Below are positions 2,011 through 44,679 of a stretch of 64,000 nucleotides of DNA, piece after piece. Each line of letters begins with the position of its first letter. The stretch's first letter is position 1. The notes beneath the pieces are model-generated. The model had not been told where the DNA came from and did no database searches. It worked only from the letters and a program-made list of their open reading frames with translations. Both the position numbers and the translations under genes were made by a program. The stretch is taken from positions 75,082,001-75,146,000 of the forward strand of contig OZ024743.1 in NCBI GenBank assembly GCA_964016885.1, read 5' to 3'. The DNA comes from Eledone cirrhosa. Lineage: Eukaryota.

Positions 2011-2076
<66 letters not shown>

Positions 2077-2131
2077 AAAAAGATGAAATCGAAAATGCAA
2101 CTGGAGTCTTTTTTAAAATATTTATTTGGTT

Positions 2132-2169
2132 CCTTTACCGGTTTCGCAGTGTTTATGCTTTTCAAAAGT
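2132..2169 (-). ncRNA. Minimal hammerhead-like motif, U3-A8 variant
   Basis: Minus strand actt-TTGAAAA-gca-taaacac-tgc-GAAAC-cg-GTA-aagg; lies in repeat 2090-2207, homologous to 44476-44590. Confidence 0.5.
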
Positions 2170-2728
2170 AGAATTGAGATGGAGGGTTTGTGGTTTTTCT
2201 CGCATCTGGTTGGTGTTCGTAAAATGCTACGTCACTCGATTTTACTTACAGTCGATATCCGACCAAATCTTCAGAATACTGATCTGTGTATATGATACAG
2301 TGCGCTAGTATTTATGGATACATTAAAACTAACAAGAATAAAGCAAGAATAATGATGATAATAATAATAAGAGGGGGGTGCAGTAATGGGGGGGGGTACT
2401 GGGATACAGTAAAATATGGTAATAATAATAATAACAACATGGAAAAAAATAGGAAAAGTGGTATGAAAAGGTGATACGATAAGGAAGATAATGCAGAACA
2501 TTTAAGGTAACTTGGATTACCTTAAACGATATCTCGTTAACCCTGATGCTGCACTAAGTGTGGCCCAAACTCGAGTCCGGGAACTATTATACGCACCCGT
2601 TTTACGTATGTTGTGTTGAAGCGAATAACTATGTGTATACTCTGGGAATATATCCTACATTACCTGTTGAGTACGCTGAGATACAACGGGTCCTGGCATT
2701 GATAAATATGCTGGGTCCGTCAACTCCT

Positions 2729-2836: not shown

Positions 2837-3228
<392 letters not shown>

Positions 3229-3229
3229 T

Positions 3230-4536
<1,307 letters not shown>

Positions 4537-12500: not shown

Positions 12501-12954
12501 TAATCGTTCTGTCAATGCAAGTATCTCATTTATAACACTAGGTTTATCATGATGTACGGTTCTCAAATGGAGAATCGGAAGTGTTGATCAGATGGCTATC
12601 GGGCATCAAGTAAAAATGCTAAAGCGAATCAAAAAATAATCTCAAATATCTGTGAGATATCTTCATACACCCAGCGACTCAGCTATGTTTTACATCGAAA
12701 GAGAAGTACACTTCAACCTATATATATATATGTGTGTGTTGGTGATGTGTTAGTGTAAATGGTAGCACAGTGGTCTGAATAACCAAAGATGTGCGTTCGA
12801 CTCCCATGTACGTCAATACTCATCTTTTTCCATTTCTCCGAGGGTTCTTAACCCCACTATCAGGCTAAATAATTTCTTTAATTTCTTTAGTCAAAATACG
12901 GCGATAGCTTACATTTATAATAATTTCAAACCCGCTCGCTGTTTCGAAAATATT

Positions 12955-13528: not shown

Positions 13529-13638
13529 GAAGTGAATTGGAGATATACAAAAGCGTGGAGAACTTAATATTGCTAACATAAATTTATTGGACCGTTTTAC
13601 ACAACCAATAATACACCTTACTATATATATATATATAT

Positions 13639-14788
13639 ACAAATATATTACACAAAGAGAAGTGTGTTACACAGTGAGATGTGTGGAAAGAATTATTACA
13701 AGTGAGTTTTACTGTTACTGTATAGAAAACAATATCTACAGGTTTAGCAATTAAATAGAAAAAAACTAAGTCAGAATCAAATCTCTGAATTAGAGTTTTA
13801 AATTACCAACCTTATAACTATAAGTTTGCTGATACGAATCAAGTTCGTTTCCCCACAGAAATGTGCAGTTTAACAGTTCATCAGTCAGCAAATGTGGATT
13901 CTGTTTACTACACATCTAACCTCGTGGATAGAGAGAAAGCTAATATACACGCTGCCCAGGGTAGGGCGAAATCACATGTTATTTGCATCAAATAACGGCT
14001 CTCATGGATTGGGGAAAATGCTAGAGAGAGCAGCCCAACCATTCGAATTTATTAGCTCAACAATTTGGAGCTCGTTAAGTATACGATGATCGGAATGAAG
14101 AGTATTCCGCAGTTCACAGTAATAATAATAATATTAGCTCGAAGAAGAATAGAGAATTTTCTTCTGAGCTCAGATACAAATATATTACACAAAGAGAAGT
14201 GTGTTATTATTACTGTGAACTGCGGAATACTCTTCATTCCGATCATCGTATACTTAACGAGCTCCAAATTGTTGAGCTAATAAATTCGAATGGTTGGGCT
14301 GCTCTCTCTAGCATTTTCCCCAATCCATGAGAGCCGTTATTTGATGCAAATAACACGTGATTTCGCCCTACCCTGGGCAGTGTGTATATTAGCTTTCTCT
14401 CTATCCATGAGGTTAGATGTGTAGTAAACAGAATCCACATTTGCTGACTGGTGAAACTGTGGCTGTTAAACTGCACATTTCTGTGGGGAAACGAACTTCA
14501 TTCGTATCAGCAAACTTATAGTTATAAGGTTGGTAATTTAAAACTCTAATTCAGAGATTTGATTCTGACTTAGTTTTTTTCTATTTAATTGCTAAACCTG
14601 TAGATATTGTTTTCTATACAGTAACGGTAAAACTCACTTGTAATAATTCCTTACACACATCTCACTGTGTAACACACTTCTCTTTGTGTAATATATTTGT
14701 ATCTGAGCTCAGAAGAAAATTCTCTATTCTTCTTCGAGCTAATATTATTATTATTACTGTGAACTGCGGAATACTCTTCATTCCGATC

Positions 14789-17032: not shown

Positions 17033-18675
17033 TATGGAGCCCCGAGTATGCTCCTAGCTGCTGATACGGTCATACCCACGGCTACTGGGGTCCAACAGGG
17101 CGACCCTTTGGACCCCTCCTGTTCGCCCTTGGTATTGACCACATCGCCCGGAGTATCACGGCCCCTCTCAACGTTTGGTATCTGGATGATGCTACGTTGG
17201 ACGGACCCGTACGGACGGTCTGCCAAGACCTTCAATCGGTGATTCCTGCTCTGGCGGGAATCGGCTTTCAGGTCAACTCGGCCAAGTCGGAGGTGGTGAA
17301 CGTCAGCCTCGATGCTGCGAGCTTTGCAGCCACCGTCTTGGACGTGCAGTCCATTCTCCGCCAGGTTCAGGTGACCCCCAAAGAGGATGTCCTCATCCTC
17401 GGGTCAACGATCCACCCGCCGGCCATCCGCTCCACCATCAGGTCCAGGCTTCAACAGCTCCAGACTCTCACGAGCCGACTGGGCTTGATTGACGGCCACC
17501 CAGCTCTCTTTCTGCTGAGGAACTGCTTCGCCATGCCGAAGCTCCTCTATACACTCCGCAGCGCTCCATGCTACACCCAGACATCTCTCCTCGCTGACCT
17601 CGATACTTGTATCCGAGCAGCAGCCGAGGGCATATGCAACGTCAAGTTTGACGACATAGGGTGGCAACAGGCCACTTTACCGGTCAGGTATGGCGGCCTA
17701 GGCCTCCGATCCCCGATCTCACTAGCTTTGCCGGCGTATCTTTCGTCGATAACCTCGTACCCCGTCCTCGTCAGCAGGGTTCTTCAAAACACAACAGAGC
17801 CCTCTGTGTTCAGAGAACGTGAGGCCGCCTGTGAGACGCGGAACCGGCTGGGACTTAGCCCAGTAGACGTCCCTCTTCCTTCTTCCCCTGTTGACGTCAA
17901 GTCCTCCCAACGCACTTGGGATGCCATCCAGTGCAGCCTGGCCTCAGACAGGCTCACGCGCCAGCTCGACCAGCACCGCCTTCCTTGTTTTCGTGCGGCC
18001 TCCAAACCCCACAGTGGTGCCTGGCTCCATGCTCTGCCCTCCTTCTCCACTGGCACGCAGCTAGACAACCATAGCCTGCGAATCGGCGTTTCCCTGAGGC
18101 TCGGCCTCCGGATCTGCCAGCCACACCAATGTCATTGCGGTTCCACCGTGGACTCTTTCGGCCTCCACCCGCTTTCCTGTCGCCACAGTGCCGGCCGCAT
18201 TTCACGCCATACTGCCCTCAACGAGGTCATTAAGCATGGCTTGGACGCTGCAGGCTTCCCTTCCCAGCTCGAGCCGGTGGGGCTGGATCGAGGGGACGGC
18301 AAAAGGCCAGATGGCATGACCATCTTCCCGTTCCGCGGTGGCAAACCCCTCGTCTGGGATGCCACTTGCACCGACACTTTCTGCAGCCGCAACCTGGTGA
18401 CCCAGGTCCTGCTGCATGTCGGGCTGAGGGGGCAAAACTCCTCAAATACCGGTCGCTCTCGGACAGGTTTGCGGTCGTTCCACTGGCAGTGGAAACTTCT
18501 GGTGTCCTCGGCCACAGGTCTACCTCCTTACTCACCACCATAGGCGCTGAGCTGGCCAGCCGCAGGTGTGAGCCCCGTCAGTGGAGTGGCTTTTCCAGCG
18601 CGTCTCCCTTGCCGTCCTCCTGGGAAACGCCTTCTCCATTCTGTCCGCCGGGGCTGTGGGTGGGCCCCATCGAGT
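17033..18675 (+). mobile_element. 5'-truncated CRE-clade non-LTR retrotransposon (RT, Zn knuckle, restriction-like endonuclease), frameshifted
   Basis: GVQQGDPL(fs)PLLFALG...VWYLDD (17179-17190); QATLPVRYGGLGLR; CHCG...HPLSC; RHTALN; KRPDG; WDATC; (fs) KYRSL...VPLAVETSG; includes ORF 17197-18543. Confidence 0.9.
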
Positions 18676-29949: not shown

Positions 29950-29969
29950 TTATTAAAATAACAGATTAA

Positions 29970-30020
29970 AGTTTAAGCAAAGAATCGCTGCTTTCGCCCT
30001 TAACGGGATCTTCTGAAACT
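29970..30020 (-). ncRNA. Hammerhead-like motif with CAGAAGA core
   Basis: Minus strand agttt-CAGAAGA-t-ccc-gttaa-ggg-c-GAAA-gca-gcgattctt-tgc-TT-aaact; second partial copy at ~60944-60992 (+). Confidence 0.4.
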
Positions 30021-30069
30021 AACAAAGTCAATCTGTAAACGCAGAACTGGATATTTCAAAAAACGTTGC

Positions 30070-30770
30070 ATATATATATGAATGTATATATAGTGTATTT
30101 TGCAATACACTGTATGCTTAATTAAAAGCATTTCCAAGACCTTATGCTATTGTTTTAGAGTAGTGACAGACTCACTTACTTTAAATTTTCAGCAAACAGG
30201 GGGAGATAAAGCTGACAGAGCTATGTTTCGTACTGATTGGTACTTATCAAAGCCAAGTACCCCACCTGTTTGCTGAAAATCATGAATGTTTGATTCTTAT
30301 AGAATTTCTAGTAATAATCAGGAACTGATTATACAGAGCGGTTGCCGGTCAAGCAGAAATTGAAAATTAGAATTGGCGCTCTGAAATATTGCAAAATACA
30401 CTATATATACATTCATATATATATAGCTATTTCAGAGCGCCAATTCTAATTTTCAATTTCTGCTTGACCGGCAACCGCTCTGTATAATCAGTTCTTGATT
30501 ATTACTAGAAATTCTATAAGAATCAAACATTCATGATTTTCAGCAAACAGATGGGGTACTTGGCTTTGATAAGTACCAATCAGTACGAAATATAGCTCTG
30601 TCAGCTTAATCTGCCCCTGTTTGCTGAAAATTTAAAGTAAGTGAGTCTGTCACTACCCTAAAACAATAGCATAAGGTCTTGGAAATGCTTTTAATTAAGC
30701 ATACAGTGTATTGCAAAATACACTATATATACATTCATATATATAGCTATTTCAGAGCGCCAATTCTAAT
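30070..30770. mobile_element. Inverted dimer of a ~322-bp hammerhead-bearing monomer
   Basis: 30070-30386 is inverted relative to 30387-30770; right arm repeats its first ~60 bp (30389 and 30711). Confidence 0.8.
30210..30254 (-). ncRNA. Hammerhead, U3-A8 variant
   Basis: Minus strand gct-TTGATAA-gtac-caatca-gtac-GAAAC-atagctct-GTC-agc; inverted copy at 30562-30606. Confidence 0.7.
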
Positions 30771-30885
30771 TATATATATATATATATATATACATGAATA
30801 CATGATACATGAATGTGTATATGTAATATATGTGTCTGTGTGTATCCATGTATGTATGTATGTATGTATATATGTATGTATGTAT

Positions 30886-31493
30886 GTCAGGTCACCAGTT
30901 GGTGCTACTGGTAACATGTATGCCAGTACAACCTGTCTCATGGTCGGGTCGTTGGCGACTAAACTGGCAACCCCACCTAGGTTTCTTGGTGAGGAGGGTG
31001 GCTTTGGACATCCTGCAGGACTAAAAACAAAACCTGTCAAAAGGCAAAGGGGCTCTTAAGAGTCAATAGCCATCCAAAATCACCGGGAGAGATGACCCCT
31101 TAGCCTTTGTCAAGGCAGAATTCTAGGAGAAGGAAAACTCTGATATAACACCTGCAACCCTGATGGTATCCAATGATGTTGACTTGTTCTTCTTTTTGGT
31201 AAATATCATCTTGGTTAAGAGAGTGGGACTGGCTTTGTGCAGTGCCTTTGCTCACTATAAAAGCTTCACGGCACAGGCATTGCTTTATATCTGGAGATCT
31301 CTCTGCACTTGTCATCACATGGTACCATGGGCCCAGCACTATGTGTCAATAATTGTCACAAGTGTAGTGTTTGTACCAGAGTTTTCAAGTCGCTGGCTGG
31401 ACTAAAAAGTCACACTCGTTCAGCGCATCGGTGGGGGTTCTCCTACATGGATATAAAGTAGTGGCCGTACTCGAAAACGAGTAGGCAGCCACC
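30886..31493 (+). mobile_element. ~600-bp non-autonomous retroelement (RTE-like 5' UTR) within (TATG)n
   Basis: Near-identical inverted copy at 34826-35426; GGAGAAGGAAAACTCTGA motif resembles RTE 5' regions; TATG repeats on both sides. Confidence 0.65.
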
Positions 31494-32016
31494 ATGTATA
31501 TATGTATGTATATATGTTGTTGCTGGGTTACTGTTGTCGTTGGTGGTGATGTTATTCATGTTGTTGATATTGTTGTCATTGTTTTTGTTTGTTGTTGTTA
31601 TTATTGTTGCACAGCTTCTCCATTAATATATTCACTGTCCGTAGAAGAAATCGTCGTTTACAATGCAAATTGATTATTGTGACGGACATGTATCGTCTGC
31701 CATGTATTTCTGATGCTTCGTTAACGTGTGTGTTGCAGTTGATATTTGATAAGAGTGAACATTCTCACAGGACGTATAAACTACTCCGGTTACAGCTAGC
31801 CACAAGTCCTCGCAGTCTCATAATAAACATACCCTGAAAACCTGTTTCATTGCTTAGCACGCACATATGCTAATTACTCCCTCACGACGACCAGAGCCGT
31901 ATATCTCTCTCACTTTCTAGATCATTCTCTTGTTCCGAGACATACAACATGAGGCAGCCATGTTCAGAGTTTGCTTTTACTTTCGTTAACATATACATAA
32001 ACACATAAGCACAGAT

Positions 32017-33460
<1,444 letters not shown>

Positions 33461-33507
33461 GATGAGATTCTACAGGACTAGAACTGTTTCATTCTTTAGA
33501 AATCATC

Positions 33508-33598
<91 letters not shown>

Positions 33599-33849
33599 TG
33601 GGGGAGAGTGAAAAAGTGATATAGAGGAAGAGTCGACCCCAGTACTAGACTGGTACTTTTTTACTACAAAGTTGATCTCGACGGGATTTGAACTCAGAGA
33701 GCAGAGAACCGAAATAAATAACACAAATCATTCTACCTGACGTTGTAACAACTCTGTCAATTGGCACCCATTTATCATAGCATCCCTAGTTATAATGATG
33801 TGTCTATAGTAAGAAGCTATATACATACATTTTTATGACTTCTATACAA

Positions 33850-34440
33850 TGCCAGACAATGGATGTAGTCATTAAAATATCCAAAGTTTCTAACTCTGTT
33901 AAAATAGGATTTCCCACATCCACTTGAATACAACAAACTCTTCAACACCAGTAAGGTTAGGGTAAGCTATTTATTATTCTATAACATTTCTTCCAATATT
34001 ACAGGCAGCAACCAAACCCCCTACACCCCAGAAAAACCTTCTAACAGCCGATTTATACATTTAAAAATTTCTCAGTCAGAACACTTAGAACATAGTTTCT
34101 CTCCTAAACCGTTGCTATATACAGCATTGATAACATCATCGGAGAGTTATAGAACAGAATTATGTAAAAGTATCGCCTCTAAGACATTCAGAAGCTGATA
34201 TTATTAACATGTAAGGACATTCCGAGCAATGAAGAAGGAAAAAACCACACATCACTATCTCAAATCATCTGGAATCATAAGCACAGTGGTTACGAACGTA
34301 CCCCAATAGCATGAAATATTGTCGGAAAAATCTCTTTATATTCTGGGATACCATTTATACGCAGGCAAGCACTGCAGGAAATTGTTTGCTTGGAAAAACA
34401 ATGCACTAAATCATATTCCATTATGATATAAACGCCTTAA
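33850..34440 (+). pseudogene. Decayed Penelope-like linker/endonuclease fragment
   Basis: NKLFNTSKVRVSY resembles the PLE linker KIFN..TVKVSY; downstream very degenerate. Confidence 0.4.
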
Positions 34441-34825
34441 AATTAAGGTATTTACCTGCATTTACCACATAAGACGTACACATAAAAATACACACATAGA
34501 CACAAAAACACACATATATACATACACTCAAATACACACCCATATACACATACATACACACACACAAACTCACACACACATACACACAAAAAGAGTCAGG
34601 TATATACACACCAACACGCAAACACATACACACATACACACGCACAGGCACACAATCACACGCAAACCTACAAATGCATACATAAACGCATTTACATAAT
34701 TAAATGTTGTGGGGAAAATGTTTAAGGCCCAACATTGATTTAAAGGCAGGAAAGAAAACATATATGCATACATACATACATACATACATACATACATACA
34801 TACATACATACATACATACATACAT

Positions 34826-35426
34826 GGTGGCTGCCAACTCGTTTTCGAGTACGGCCACTACTTTATATCCATGTAGGAGAACTCCTACCGATGCGCTGAA
34901 CGAGTGTGACTTTTTAGTCCAGCCAGCGACTTGAAAACTCTGGTACAAACAGTACACTTGTGACAATTACTGACACATAGTGCTGGGCCCATGGTACCAT
35001 GTGACGACAAGTGCAGAGAGATCTCCAGATATAAAGCAATGCCTGTGCCGTGAAGCTTTTATAGTGAGCAAAGGCACTGCACAAAGCCAGTCCCACTCTC
35101 TTAACCAAGATGATATTTACCAAAAAGAAGAACAAGTGAACATCATTGGATACCATCAGAGTTGCAGGTGTCATATCAGAGTTTTCCTTCTCCTAGAATT
35201 CTGCCTTGACAAAGGCTAAGGGGTCATCTCTCCCAGTGATTTTGGATAGCCATTGACTCTTAAGAGCTGCTTTGACAGGTTTTGTTTTTAGTCCTGCAGG
35301 ATGTCCAAGGTCACCCTCCTCACCAAGAAACCTTGGTGGGGTTGCCAGTTTAGTCGCCAACGACCCGACCATGAGATAGGTTGTACTGGGATACATGTTA
35401 CCAGTAGCACCTACTGGTGACCTGAC
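34826..35426 (-). mobile_element. Second copy of the ~600-bp (TATG)n-embedded element
   Basis: Reverse complement of 30886-31493; (TACA)n on both sides. Confidence 0.75.
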
Positions 35427-36183: not shown

Positions 36184-36274
36184 GAGGTGAGTTTTATTGT
36201 ATCACAATAAAGCAATGCAAATATCGGATAAGTACCACTCCACAGTTTATAGGACTGGAGTATAAATAATATAA

Positions 36275-37745
36275 AATCAAAAGATGGTTAAAAGAGTTCC
36301 AAGTATTTTATTATGCGCATTTCAAAAACAAATATCATCATGGGATGATATTTGCGTTTTCATCAGATAAAATAGGGAGACATGATATGAAGCTTAAAAA
36401 ACACTTGCGGGCAGTGAAGTGTTAAATCAACATATGGAAAATAAAGTAAGATGGATATATGAGATTGGCAAAAGAAAAGGAGGGGGGGTAGGAAAAGTAA
36501 GGAAGAGGAAGAAAGAAAAGGATGACGGGGGAGGTGTATAAGAAGGAAGGATGAGAGAGGAGGAGAAATGAGTGATAGAGAGAGAGAAATAGCCTTTAAA
36601 ACAGAGAAAAACATTGTCTCACAGAGAGAAATTAAAAAACCGTTGAAAGATAATAGTTAATTTTAAAAGATTTTGAAATTAAAAGTTAAAAGTTAATGAG
36701 GTTTATGAATGGTGATGTTTATGATTAAAGAAAAGGGAATTAAGAGAGGTATTTATTTAAGGTTTATATATTGAAGGGTTTAATAATATGTGCGAAAAAA
36801 GAATTTATTAATATGTATTATTAAAATAAAAGTATGAAGGATATAATATGAGTGAATGAGAGATTAAATGAGTTATGAATTTAGCGGAATTAATTACGGT
36901 TTAAGTTTGTTTTTATGTATTGTAATATGTAAAAGTAAGGAAGAAAAATATATAACGTCAAAAAATATATATATGTTTACAAAATTTACTAATGGTAATA
37001 TTATTATATATTAAGAAAAATATAGTTTGTATGGCCAAGAATATAAGGGAAAATGAAAAATGCTATAGTGAGTAATAATATGAATTAAGAAGTAATTGAG
37101 AAGTAAAAGTTACAGATTAAAGATTAGAAATTAAAAAAGAGAAGAAAGGAAGAAAGGAAAAAGGATAAAAAGAAGAAAGATAGGGGATCACAACGACATA
37201 GAATGAGTAAATTGTATAATATAATATACTAAAATAAGGTAGAAAGATGGGTATATTTGTAAAAGATATAAAAGCGTTTGAGAAAAGAAGATTTTAAAAC
37301 TAATTAGGTTTTGAGATATTAGCTGTATACTTTATGGAAAGTTCAAGCAGAGCGAAAATAAATCCGTACGTCTATTTATTATAGAATTAAAATTGGATAT
37401 AATGGTAAATTTCTCGGCTAGGCAGAGATTACATGTTCTGGATAGGGAAGAATTCTGGTAAGGAAAGGCGTTGCAAACCTTCCTCCAAGAGATGTTATAG
37501 TTAATATTTTTATCTTTTAAGGACCCTATGAGTTCCGAGAGTGCCGTGTTAGTTCTTTTAAGTTGGTATTTAAAAGGCGAATTGAGATTATAAAATCTTG
37601 CTTTAAAGGAAGTGGAAGTGGAACCGAAATAGGTAAAAGAATTAGTACCAGTTATAACCTTGCACTAAGTTTTTATCAAGACATTGGTTATTAAGAGGAC
37701 ATTTAGTTCTAACAGTGCAATTACAATTACGATTAGAGAAAATTA
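36275..37745 (-). mobile_element. Penelope-like element 3' end: GIY-YIG remnant, long 3' UTR and hammerhead
   Basis: Minus strand 37340-37735: RNCNCTVRTKCPLNNQCL...TYFGSTSTSFKARFYN...TALSELI...CNLCLAEK...INRRTDLFSLC; hammerhead at 36306-36372. Confidence 0.8.
36306..36372 (-). ncRNA. Type I hammerhead with long hairpin stem II
   Basis: ttttat-CTGATGA-aaac-gcaaatatcatc-ccat-gatgatatttgt-tttt-GAAA-tgcgca-TA-ataaaa. Confidence 0.7.
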
Positions 37746-40161: not shown

Positions 40162-40806
40162 TTACCATTAGTAAATTTTGTAAACATATATATTTTTTTT
40201 TTTCCTAAAACTTTCTTCTTTCTTCTTTCCTTCTGTGCTCGTATTAAACCTATTATCTACTTTTACATATTACAATACTTAAACCCTAACTAATTCCTCT
40301 AAATTCATAACTCATTTAATCTCTCATTCACTCATCCTTCATACTTTTATTTTAATAATACATATTAATAAATTCTTTTTTCGCACATATTATTAAACCC
40401 TTCAATATATAAACCTTAAATAAATACCTTCCTTAATTCCCTTTTCTTTAATCATAAACATCACCATTCATAAACCTCATTAACTATTAACTTTTAATTT
40501 CAAAATCTTTTTAAATTAACTATTATCTTTCAACGGTTTTTTAATTTCTCTCTGTGAGACAATGTTTTTCTGTTTTAAAGGCTATTTCTCTCTCTCTATC
40601 ACTCATTTCTCCTCCTCTCTCATCCTTCCTTCTTATACTCCTCCCCCCGTCATCCTTTTCTTTCTTCCTCTTCCTTACTTTTTCCTACCCCCCCCCCCCC
40701 TCTTTTTTTCCATATCTCAAATATCCATCTTACTTTATTTTTCATATGTTGATTTAACACTTCACTGCCCGCAAGTGTTTTTTAAGCTTCATATCATGTC
40801 TCCCTA

Positions 40807-40873
40807 TTTTATCTGATGAGAACGCAAATACCATCCCATGATGATATTTGTTTTTGAAATGCGCATAATAAAA
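40807..40873 (+). ncRNA. Type I hammerhead (inverted partner of 36306-36372)
   Basis: ttttat-CTGATGA-gaacgcaaataccatcccatgatgatatttgttttt-GAAA-tgcgca-TA-ataaaa. Confidence 0.7.
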
Positions 40874-40905
40874 TATTTGGAACTCTTTTAACCATCTTTT
40901 GATCT

Positions 40906-41011
<106 letters not shown>

Positions 41012-44473: not shown

Positions 44474-44514
44474 CAGAGATGCGAGAAAAACCACAAACCT
44501 TCCATCTCAATTCT

Positions 44515-44552
44515 ACTTTTGAAAAGCATAAAAACTGTGAAACCGGTAAAGG
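44515..44552 (+). ncRNA. Minimal hammerhead-like motif, U3-A8 variant
   Basis: actt-TTGAAAA-gca-taaaaac-tgt-GAAAC-cg-GTA-aagg; same family as 2132-2169. Confidence 0.5.
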
Positions 44553-44679
44553 AAATAAATATTCTTAATAAGACTCCAGTTGCATGTTTTCCTTATACTT
44601 TCACTCGTGTATGACATCTCTTTTTTTTTTTTGTTTTTTTTGTTTTTTCATTTTCAAAAAAACCTCATTTTCTTGGAAT

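What the first reader, a model, noticed from the sequence alone, without database searches (positions are those of the whole stretch)
30070..30770. Second permuted inverted dimer, with C3-G8 to U3-A8 core covariation against its relative at 3230-3600
Seen: the ~322-bp monomer occurs as an inverted unit plus a 1.2-unit arm. Both hammerheads read TTGATAA, whereas the homolog at 3360-3403 reads CTGATGA. Stem II changes from acgc/gcgt to gtac/gtac around a nearly identical loop. Known: positions 3 and 8 form a Watson-Crick pair in the active hammerhead, and U3-A8 is a tolerated natural variant. Inference: a compensatory double change within one family, so probably functional yet invisible to CUGANGA searches.
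Basis: partly seen in the sequence, partly recalled or inferred. Interest (0 to 1): 0.75.

Follow-up and report, generated by a model that had tools for sequence, protein, structure and literature searches.

The report
Retrozyme copy with swapped hammerhead pair
This is one back-to-back copy of a small jumping repeat, present hundreds of times in this animal genome and likely moved by Penelope-type retrotransposons, whose predicted self-cutting RNA carries a real but already described swap of one core base pair.

Summary
Observation confirmed; the variant is known. The stretch 30071-30771 is an inverted 318-bp arm plus a 1.2-unit arm of a 320-bp non-coding unit, each with a type I hammerhead reading U3-A8. 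The relative at 3228-3545 reads C3-G8 (76% identical).

Genome-wide exact counts: 537 U3-A8, 564 C3-G8, 15 U3-G8 and 20 C3-A8. The mismatched copies occur at or below the neutral decay rate. That table reflects subfamilies, so it stands for only 1-2 evolutionary switches. One U3-A8 subfamily (55 copies) sits on the C3-G8 backbone; a single origin is not rejected (p-AU 0.34).

Copies show Penelope-like (PLE) scars: two fixed 3' ends 26 nt apart, (TA)n targets, 5' truncation and uneven inverted arms. This marks a non-autonomous retrozyme. This locus has one hammerhead per strand and folds back on itself, so it is likely a dead end.

U3-A8 is published in nature and in PLE hammerheads (PMC3088659, PMC4209133). 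It also occurs in 4 of 7 sampled autonomous PLE groups here. The scan noted a 320-bp U3-A8 retrozyme elsewhere in this genome (e1-8665619, e1-8665609). Cleavage is untested.

The parts
30071..30388 (-). Inverted arm: unit positions 5-322, outer end at the first fixed 3' end (the TA-rich unit end)
30181..30283 (-). Type I hammerhead of the left arm: U3 at 30250, A8 at 30245, predicted cut after C17 at 30214; long extended stem I; near-palindromic stem III (10 of 12 self-complementary)
30387..30425 (+). 5'-truncated partial unit that starts the direct arm; 2-nt overlap (TA) with the inverted arm at the junction
30426..30745 (+). Full 320-bp non-coding unit of the U3-A8 subfamily (U)
30535..30633 (+). 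Type I hammerhead of the right arm: U3 30566, A8 30571, stem II 30573-30576/30583-30586, GAAA 30587-30590, predicted cut 30602/30603; several private changes in stems I and III
30746..30771 (+). 26-nt tail (start of a further unit) ending at the second fixed 3' end, followed by (TA)n
30772..30792 (.). (TA)n target tract at the 3' end; no target-site duplication recognisable
3228..3545 (-). Relative: one unit of the C3-G8 subfamily (R); C3 at 3398, G8 at 3393; lies in a (TA)n tract; short inverted 5' piece at 3575-3601

Best explanation
The locus is one inverted insertion of a 320-bp protein-free repeat with a type I hammerhead motif (a non-LTR retrozyme), likely copied into a (TA)n tract by the enzymes of a Penelope-like element, and its U3-A8 core is a fixed, pair-keeping subfamily state that likely leaves the ribozyme able to cut. 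Shown: the unit, its tandem and inverted copies, two fixed 3' ends 26 nt apart, variable 5' ends, TA targets, four subfamilies (U, V, S with U3-A8; R with C3-G8) and kept core and helices. Inferred mechanism: tandem copies elsewhere are transcribed; two hammerheads pair through their palindromic stem III and cut out unit-length RNA that may circularise. A PLE reverse transcriptase-endonuclease nicks AT-rich DNA on both strands and starts copying at two nearby internal sites. This gives one arm ending at the unit end and the other at the tail, as here. This copy has only one hammerhead per strand, masked by its own antisense arm, so it is likely a dead-end product rather than a source.
For: Family size: 1917 and 3053 first-look candidates for U and R. 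Exact counts 537 U3-A8, 564 C3-G8, 15 U3-G8, 20 C3-A8. Mismatch rates on the R background are 2.3% (position 3) and 3.0% (position 8) against a non-CpG background of 41/1151 C>T and 50/912 G>A; on the U background 0.4% and 0.2% against 13/1607 and 15/1557. Core 9 of 9 invariant while 48 of 104 columns of the hammerhead region are invariant (160 of 217 outside), P about 6e-4. Stem III is a palindrome of different length in each subfamily (8, 9, 11, 12 nt) and the long stem I is kept. Insertion scars in 27 distinct U loci: 14 end at the unit end, 13 at the tail, 26 run into (TA)n, 13 have an inverted 5' arm, 7 hold two or more full tandem units. Where both outer ends are defined they are uneven in 9 of 9 U loci and 6 of 8 R loci. 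These are the PLE hallmarks described in PMC8557442 and PMC11167929. Autonomous RT plus GIY-YIG elements are abundant here (10,594 candidates; domains) and show the same hammerhead, two-end and (TA)n layout. U3-A8 is reported active in vitro and natural (PMC3088659).
Against: No cleavage or RNA data. No autonomous partner with sequence similarity was found in 59 distinct of 150 listed GIY-YIG loci, so the PLE link rests on scars only. Amplified subfamilies tolerate a mismatch at pair 10.1-11.1 (U.U in R2, A.A in S). One insertion has C3-A8 in both arms (L084), so a mismatched template may have moved. In vitro, hammerhead mutants did not affect insertion by an anole PLE (PMC11167929). The architecture sample is the top BLAST hits, biased to full-length young copies.
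Confidence: 0.75

Rival explanations
1. Same element, but the hammerhead is a weak or non-cutting passenger. U3-A8 arose in one or two founders and hitchhiked, and the fold is kept for protein binding or RNA stability.
For: Only 1-2 switches. Mismatches at pair 10.1-11.1 in amplified subfamilies R2 and S. Both arms of L084 are C3-A8. Cleavage was not needed for PLE insertion in vitro, and minimal PLE hammerheads cut poorly in vitro (PMC4209133).
Against: All 9 invariant catalytic positions are kept in the fastest-changing part of the unit. The 3-8 pair is Watson-Crick in 5 of 5 subfamily consensus sequences, and the dimer-type palindromic stem III is rebuilt at four lengths.
Confidence: 0.15
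2. The units are solo or truncated pseudo-LTRs of an autonomous PLE that I did not sample, not a self-contained retrozyme.
For: Same scars as the autonomous PLEs. Only 59 of 150 listed loci, out of 10,594 candidates, were examined. Retrozymes and pLTRs are homologous in Xenopus (preprint).
Against: In the loci the sequence before a full unit is the unit's own 3' end, an inverted arm or flank. Tandem arrays exist (9 cores in 3 kb in L095; 8 detected in L122). Same-strand pairs kilobases apart were a local duplication (L088) or an array (L122), not repeats around a reading frame.
Confidence: 0.08
3. The inverted repeat is a local fold-back duplication or an assembly artefact, or a locus-specific hairpin RNA gene.
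For: The arms share three differences from the family majority. No laid contig spans the whole locus.
Against: The arms differ at 6 of 318 sites. 13 of 27 sibling loci have the same inverted layout with the same fixed ends. Shared variants are expected from one template. miRNA-model hits are all far below their cut-offs.
Confidence: 0.02

Closest known systems
Animal non-LTR retrozymes (Cervera and de la Pena 2020, PMC7229834, passages and section 14 read; Li et al. 2026, bioRxiv 10.64898/2026.07.22.740005, part 1 of 5 and passages read)
   Same: Protein-free unit within the reported 170-400 nt range, one type I hammerhead per unit, monomers to tandem arrays, coexisting with autonomous PLEs.
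   Different: Three of four subfamilies have U3-A8. Most copies are dispersed PLE-type insertions with an inverted arm and a tail. No homologous PLE was found. Circular RNA is not shown.
U3-A8 hammerheads of Schistosoma mansoni Cercyon PLEs (Cervera and de la Pena 2014, PMC4209133, parts 1-2 of 4 read)
   Same: The same C3-G8 to U3-A8 covariation, found by homology within a PLE family and missed by the standard descriptor (about 1,300 hits); opposite-strand pairs 100-700 bp apart are also described.
   Different: There, minimal hammerheads without stem III in PLE repeats. Here, an 8-12 nt palindromic stem III, 4-bp stem II and long stem I in a non-autonomous unit.
Natural U3-A8 core variants (Perreault et al. 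2011, PMC3088659, passages read)
   Same: Same pair swap; stated to be active in vitro, citing Przybilski and Hammann 2007, which the library does not hold.
   Different: Scattered examples there; here whole subfamilies of hundreds of copies.
EN+ Penelope-like element insertions (Craig et al. 2021, PMC8557442, passages; Frangieh et al. 2024, PMC11167929, parts 1-2 of 4)
   Same: 5' truncation, partial tandems, inverted 5' copy, tail often at one end only, AT-rich or microsatellite targets, two internal start sites.
   Different: No reading frame; the tail is 26-28 nt rather than 30-40.

Membership tests
Type I hammerhead ribozyme | Core boxes and three helices in type I order with an NUH site | tested here: met
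   U4 G5 A6 A9, G12 A13 A14 A15.1, U16.1 and GUC present; stems I and II form; stem III is a palindrome
Type I hammerhead ribozyme | Watson-Crick pair between positions 3 and 8 | tested here: met
   U-A or C-G in 1101 of 1136 exact matches
Type I hammerhead ribozyme | Reaches an Rfam hammerhead gathering score | tested here: not met
   HH9 model 17.8 bits (left arm) and 25.4 bits (relative) against 52; right arm not listed. These models are built on other subfamilies.
Type I hammerhead ribozyme | Self-cleavage at the predicted site | not testable with these tools
   Needs a kinetics assay
Non-LTR retrozyme | Short non-coding unit with one type I hammerhead, as monomers and head-to-tail repeats | tested here: met
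   320-bp unit; 7 of 27 U loci with two or more full units; arrays in L095 and L122
Non-LTR retrozyme | Two consecutive same-strand hammerheads at the locus (the 'active' criterion of the 2026 preprint) | tested here: not met
   This locus has one per strand; met at sibling loci such as L015 and L095
Non-LTR retrozyme | Expressed as unit-length circular RNA | not testable with these tools
PLE-mobilised insertion | Fixed 3' end with optional tail, 5' truncation, inverted 5' copy, AT-rich target | tested here: met
   Counts; layouts
PLE-mobilised insertion | Sequence similarity to the terminal repeat of an autonomous PLE of the same genome | tested here: inconclusive
   None in 59 distinct of 150 listed loci, 7 groups; sampling incomplete
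Autonomous PLE | RT plus GIY-YIG reading frame | tested here: not met
   No ORF of 150 codons or more overlaps the locus

The most novel reading that the evidence does not exclude
The 3-8 core pair has flipped more than once within one retrozyme family (U/V and, separately, S), never through an amplified mismatch, while the neighbouring 10.1-11.1 pair was free to break. With U3-A8 in 4 of 7 sampled autonomous PLE groups, this would mean PLE-borne hammerheads are selected for a tuned, probably slower or protein-assisted cut. The five subfamilies would then be a natural allelic series for asking whether the ribozyme matters for PLE movement at all.
Probability: 0.2. Interest if true: 0.55.

Novelty: new member of a known kind. 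Interest (0 to 1): 0.3.

Why it matters
It adds a well-documented case to two published ideas: hammerheads with U3-A8 are real and are missed by CUGANGA descriptors (here about half of the counted family, 537 of 1136), and animal retrozymes ride on Penelope-like elements. The role of the PLE hammerhead is still open (PMC8557442, PMC11167929). The subfamilies R1, R2, S, U and V differ in core pair, closing pair and stem III length, and give ready-made natural constructs to test it. This locus itself is ordinary.

Tried and rejected
Autonomous partner: BLAST, nhmmer and shuffle-controlled alignment of the unit against PLE loci found only separate unit insertions nearby. One of 28 comparisons (U against the L158 group) edged past its 60 shuffles, 69.5 against a maximum of 68.5; not taken as homology.

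Same-strand pairs kilobases apart as pLTRs around a reading frame: rejected; L088 is a local duplication, L090 an inverted duplication, L122 a decayed array.

The 2x2 table as statistical proof of covariation: rejected, since any two subfamily-diagnostic sites are linked.

A C3-G8 sister of U or V: none among 17 matches of a looser pattern.

Rooting with the distant W and X repeats: the best tree needs 2 changes, but one clade of U+V+S is not rejected (p-AU 0.339), and the outgroup alignment is weak (z about 5 against R). An earlier midpoint-rooted reading, that R reverted from U3-A8, is therefore not established.

Expression: no RNA holder listed. Three contig sets of one sample were laid and only confirm a multi-copy family.

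Rfam: no hammerhead at gathering; miRNA hits reflect the hairpin.

Przybilski and Hammann 2007 is not held, so no rate for U3-A8 is quoted. Supplements of the cited papers were not read and may list further U3-A8 families.

Full report
1. Observation. The window holds an inverted repeat with arms 30071-30388 and 30428-30745, 318 nt, 98% complementary. The right arm extends from 30387 to 30771: a 37-nt partial unit, a full unit and a 26-nt tail before (TA)n. The period here is 320 bp. A relaxed scan of both strands found TTGATAA gtac caatca gtac GAAA ... GUC at 30566 (+) and 30250 (-), and CTGATGA acgc caacca gcgt GAAA ... GUC at 3398 (-). The relative aligns over about 320 bp at 74-76%. The three hammerhead regions fold better than all 200 shuffles (z -5.1, -6.5, -5.3), mostly through a long stem I. 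Rfam finds none at gathering and only weak HH9 scores for the left arm and the relative.

2. The family. The genome (G000, 3.0 Gb) gave 1917 first-look candidates for the finding's unit and 3053 for the relative, 40 of each scored. In the 30 best loci of the first search every recovered core read TTGATAA except one ATGATAA (one further row is a register slip of the pattern). In the 30 best loci of the second, 31 of 31 recovered cores read CTGATGA. A strict 30-mer gave 381 U3-A8, 1 U3-G8, 2 A3-A8 and no C3 copies. A pattern with free stem II gave 537 U3-A8, 564 C3-G8, 15 U3-G8 and 20 C3-A8. Of the 35 mismatched copies, 32 lie on the relative's background and 3 on the finding's. That is 2.3% and 3.0% per site on R and 0.4% and 0.2% on U. 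Background non-CpG transitions are 41/1151 C>T and 50/912 G>A in R, and 13/1607 T>C and 15/1557 A>G in U. Exact patterns favour young copies, so this comparison is rough. The 10 near-full-length mismatched R copies in the tree are scattered (113 of 158 segments were long enough to be used). One exception: both arms of insertion L084 are C3-A8.

3. How many switches? The table reflects subfamilies, not independent events. Listing the 62 U3-A8 matches with another stem II showed, by my reading of the rows, 55 of a subfamily S, 3 of a subfamily V, 2 decayed U and 2 R-type doubles. Consensus identities are R-S 93%, U-V 84%, U-R 80%, V-R 75%; the unrooted tree is ((U,V),(R,S)) with support 0.96 and 1.0. 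At 75 sites where U and R differ, S matches R at 62 and U at 4, two of which are positions 3 and 8. So S is an R-type backbone with U3-A8. Two distant C3-G8 repeat families (W and X) align weakly with the unit. With them as outgroup and positions 3 and 8 removed, the best tree needs two changes, but a single U+V+S clade is not rejected (p-AU 0.339; 29 rows). One or two switches remain possible.

4. Evidence for selection on the ribozyme. The hammerhead region is the fastest-changing part of the unit: 48 of 104 columns are invariant across five consensus sequences against 160 of 217 outside, yet 9 of 9 invariant core positions are kept (P about 6e-4). Stem II has three different paired versions. 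Stem III is a palindrome of 8, 9, 11 or 12 nt, and the long stem I is kept in all five. A palindromic stem III is the mark of hammerheads that work as dimers (PMC4209133). Against strict constraint: pair 10.1-11.1 is U.U in R2 and A.A in S.

5. How copies are made. In 27 distinct U loci (30 less 3 duplicates), 14 end at the unit end and 13 at the tail; 26 run into (TA)n; 13 have an inverted 5' arm; 7 hold two or more full units. In 30 R loci the figures are 21, 9, 20, 11 and 1. Where the inverted arm's outer end is one of the two fixed ends, the two ends differ in 9 of 9 U and 6 of 8 R loci. This matches the PLE layout of partial tandems, inverted 5' copy, one-sided tail and microsatellite targets (PMC8557442). 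It also fits the two internal start sites and AT-rich nicking on both strands shown in vitro for an anole PLE (PMC11167929). The genome has many such elements: 10,594 GIY-YIG candidates, and an example with a 938-codon RT plus GIY-YIG frame between 1.07-kb repeats. Their repeats show the same order of hammerhead, two 3' ends and (TA)n. I found no sequence-similar partner in 59 distinct loci, so mobilisation by a PLE is inferred from scars. The two arms here share three differences from the majority, as expected from one template.

6. This locus. Each strand carries one hammerhead, so no unit can be cut out between two. A transcript across the locus is predicted to pair each core base tested with its antisense copy (-552.6 kcal/mol, 93% paired). 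The right arm has private changes in stems I and III. It is likely a dead-end copy; circles, if any, would come from tandem loci such as L015, L095 or L122.

7. Known work. U3-A8 was reported in nature and stated to be active in vitro (PMC3088659, passages). The same covariation was reported inside Schistosoma PLE hammerheads, about 1,300 hits (PMC4209133, parts 1-2 of 4). Retrozymes of 170-400 nt are known across animals (PMC7229834, passages and section 14) and are proposed to be non-autonomous PLE derivatives (bioRxiv 10.64898/2026.07.22.740005, part 1 of 5 and passages). In this genome, an unbiased motif scan of PLE 3' flanks gave U3-A8 in 4 of 7 protein groups (7/12, 5/10, 5/10 and 2/2 copies) and C3-G8 in one (6/8). 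A second C3-G8 group (2/5) and one unresolved group appear. Four answered paper searches listed no description of this particular family; most subscription journals are not searched. The scan's own notes already describe a 320-bp U3-A8 retrozyme array in this genome and similar families elsewhere; I treat these as unverified repeats, not support.

8. Verdict. Real, correctly read, and a new member of a known kind. Interest 0.3. The residual value is the natural series of subfamilies, which makes the open question of what PLE hammerheads do testable; the chance that it shows repeated, selected switching is about 0.2.

Noticed in passing
window 2068-2214 (-) and 44477-44630 (+): Fragments of an autonomous PLE terminal repeat (83% and 72% to L148) with a minimal U3-A8 hammerhead, TTGAAAA ... 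GAAACCGGTA.
   Followed up: partly
window 29950-30070: The left flank is a separate, very high-copy repeat ending in (TA)n on its left; also seen in L163 and L189. It probably inserted into the TA tract beside the finding.
   Followed up: partly
window 2970-3030: Matches the 3' end of the L158 PLE group; the relative at 3228 sits at the other end of the (TA)n tract that follows it.
   Followed up: partly
window 36261-36842 and 40334-40918: Another inverted pair about 3.5 kb apart, with C3-G8 hammerhead-like motifs at 36366 (-) and 40813 (+). Further inverted pairs at 13637-14702 and 31045-35274.
   Followed up: no
L136, L138, L155, L166, L188 (PLE 3' flanks): One autonomous PLE group has a U3-A8 hammerhead-like motif whose second box reads GCAA instead of GAAA in 5 of 5 matched copies (9 examined): an apparent A13C change at an invariant core position.
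   Followed up: no
Subfamilies R2 and S; PLE groups L165 and L151: Pair 10.1-11.1 next to the core is a U.U or A.A mismatch in several amplified families.
   Followed up: partly
L168-L174, L181-L183; L179; L158:8568-9562: Two further retrozyme-like families: a 466-469 bp unit in long homogeneous tandem arrays and a unit of about 500 bp, both C3-G8, with the same inverted insertions and (TA)n ends.
   Followed up: partly
L095: Young tandem array of subfamily V, 316-bp period, at least 9 units, 1.4% mean divergence from the majority: the best candidate source of circular RNA.
   Followed up: partly
window 17065-18540 (+): Open frame of 492 codons that looks by eye like a non-LTR reverse transcriptase fragment; not searched.
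   Followed up: no
window 12744-12815 (+): Weak Rfam tRNA match, 38.9 bits; possibly a SINE head or pseudogene.
   Followed up: no
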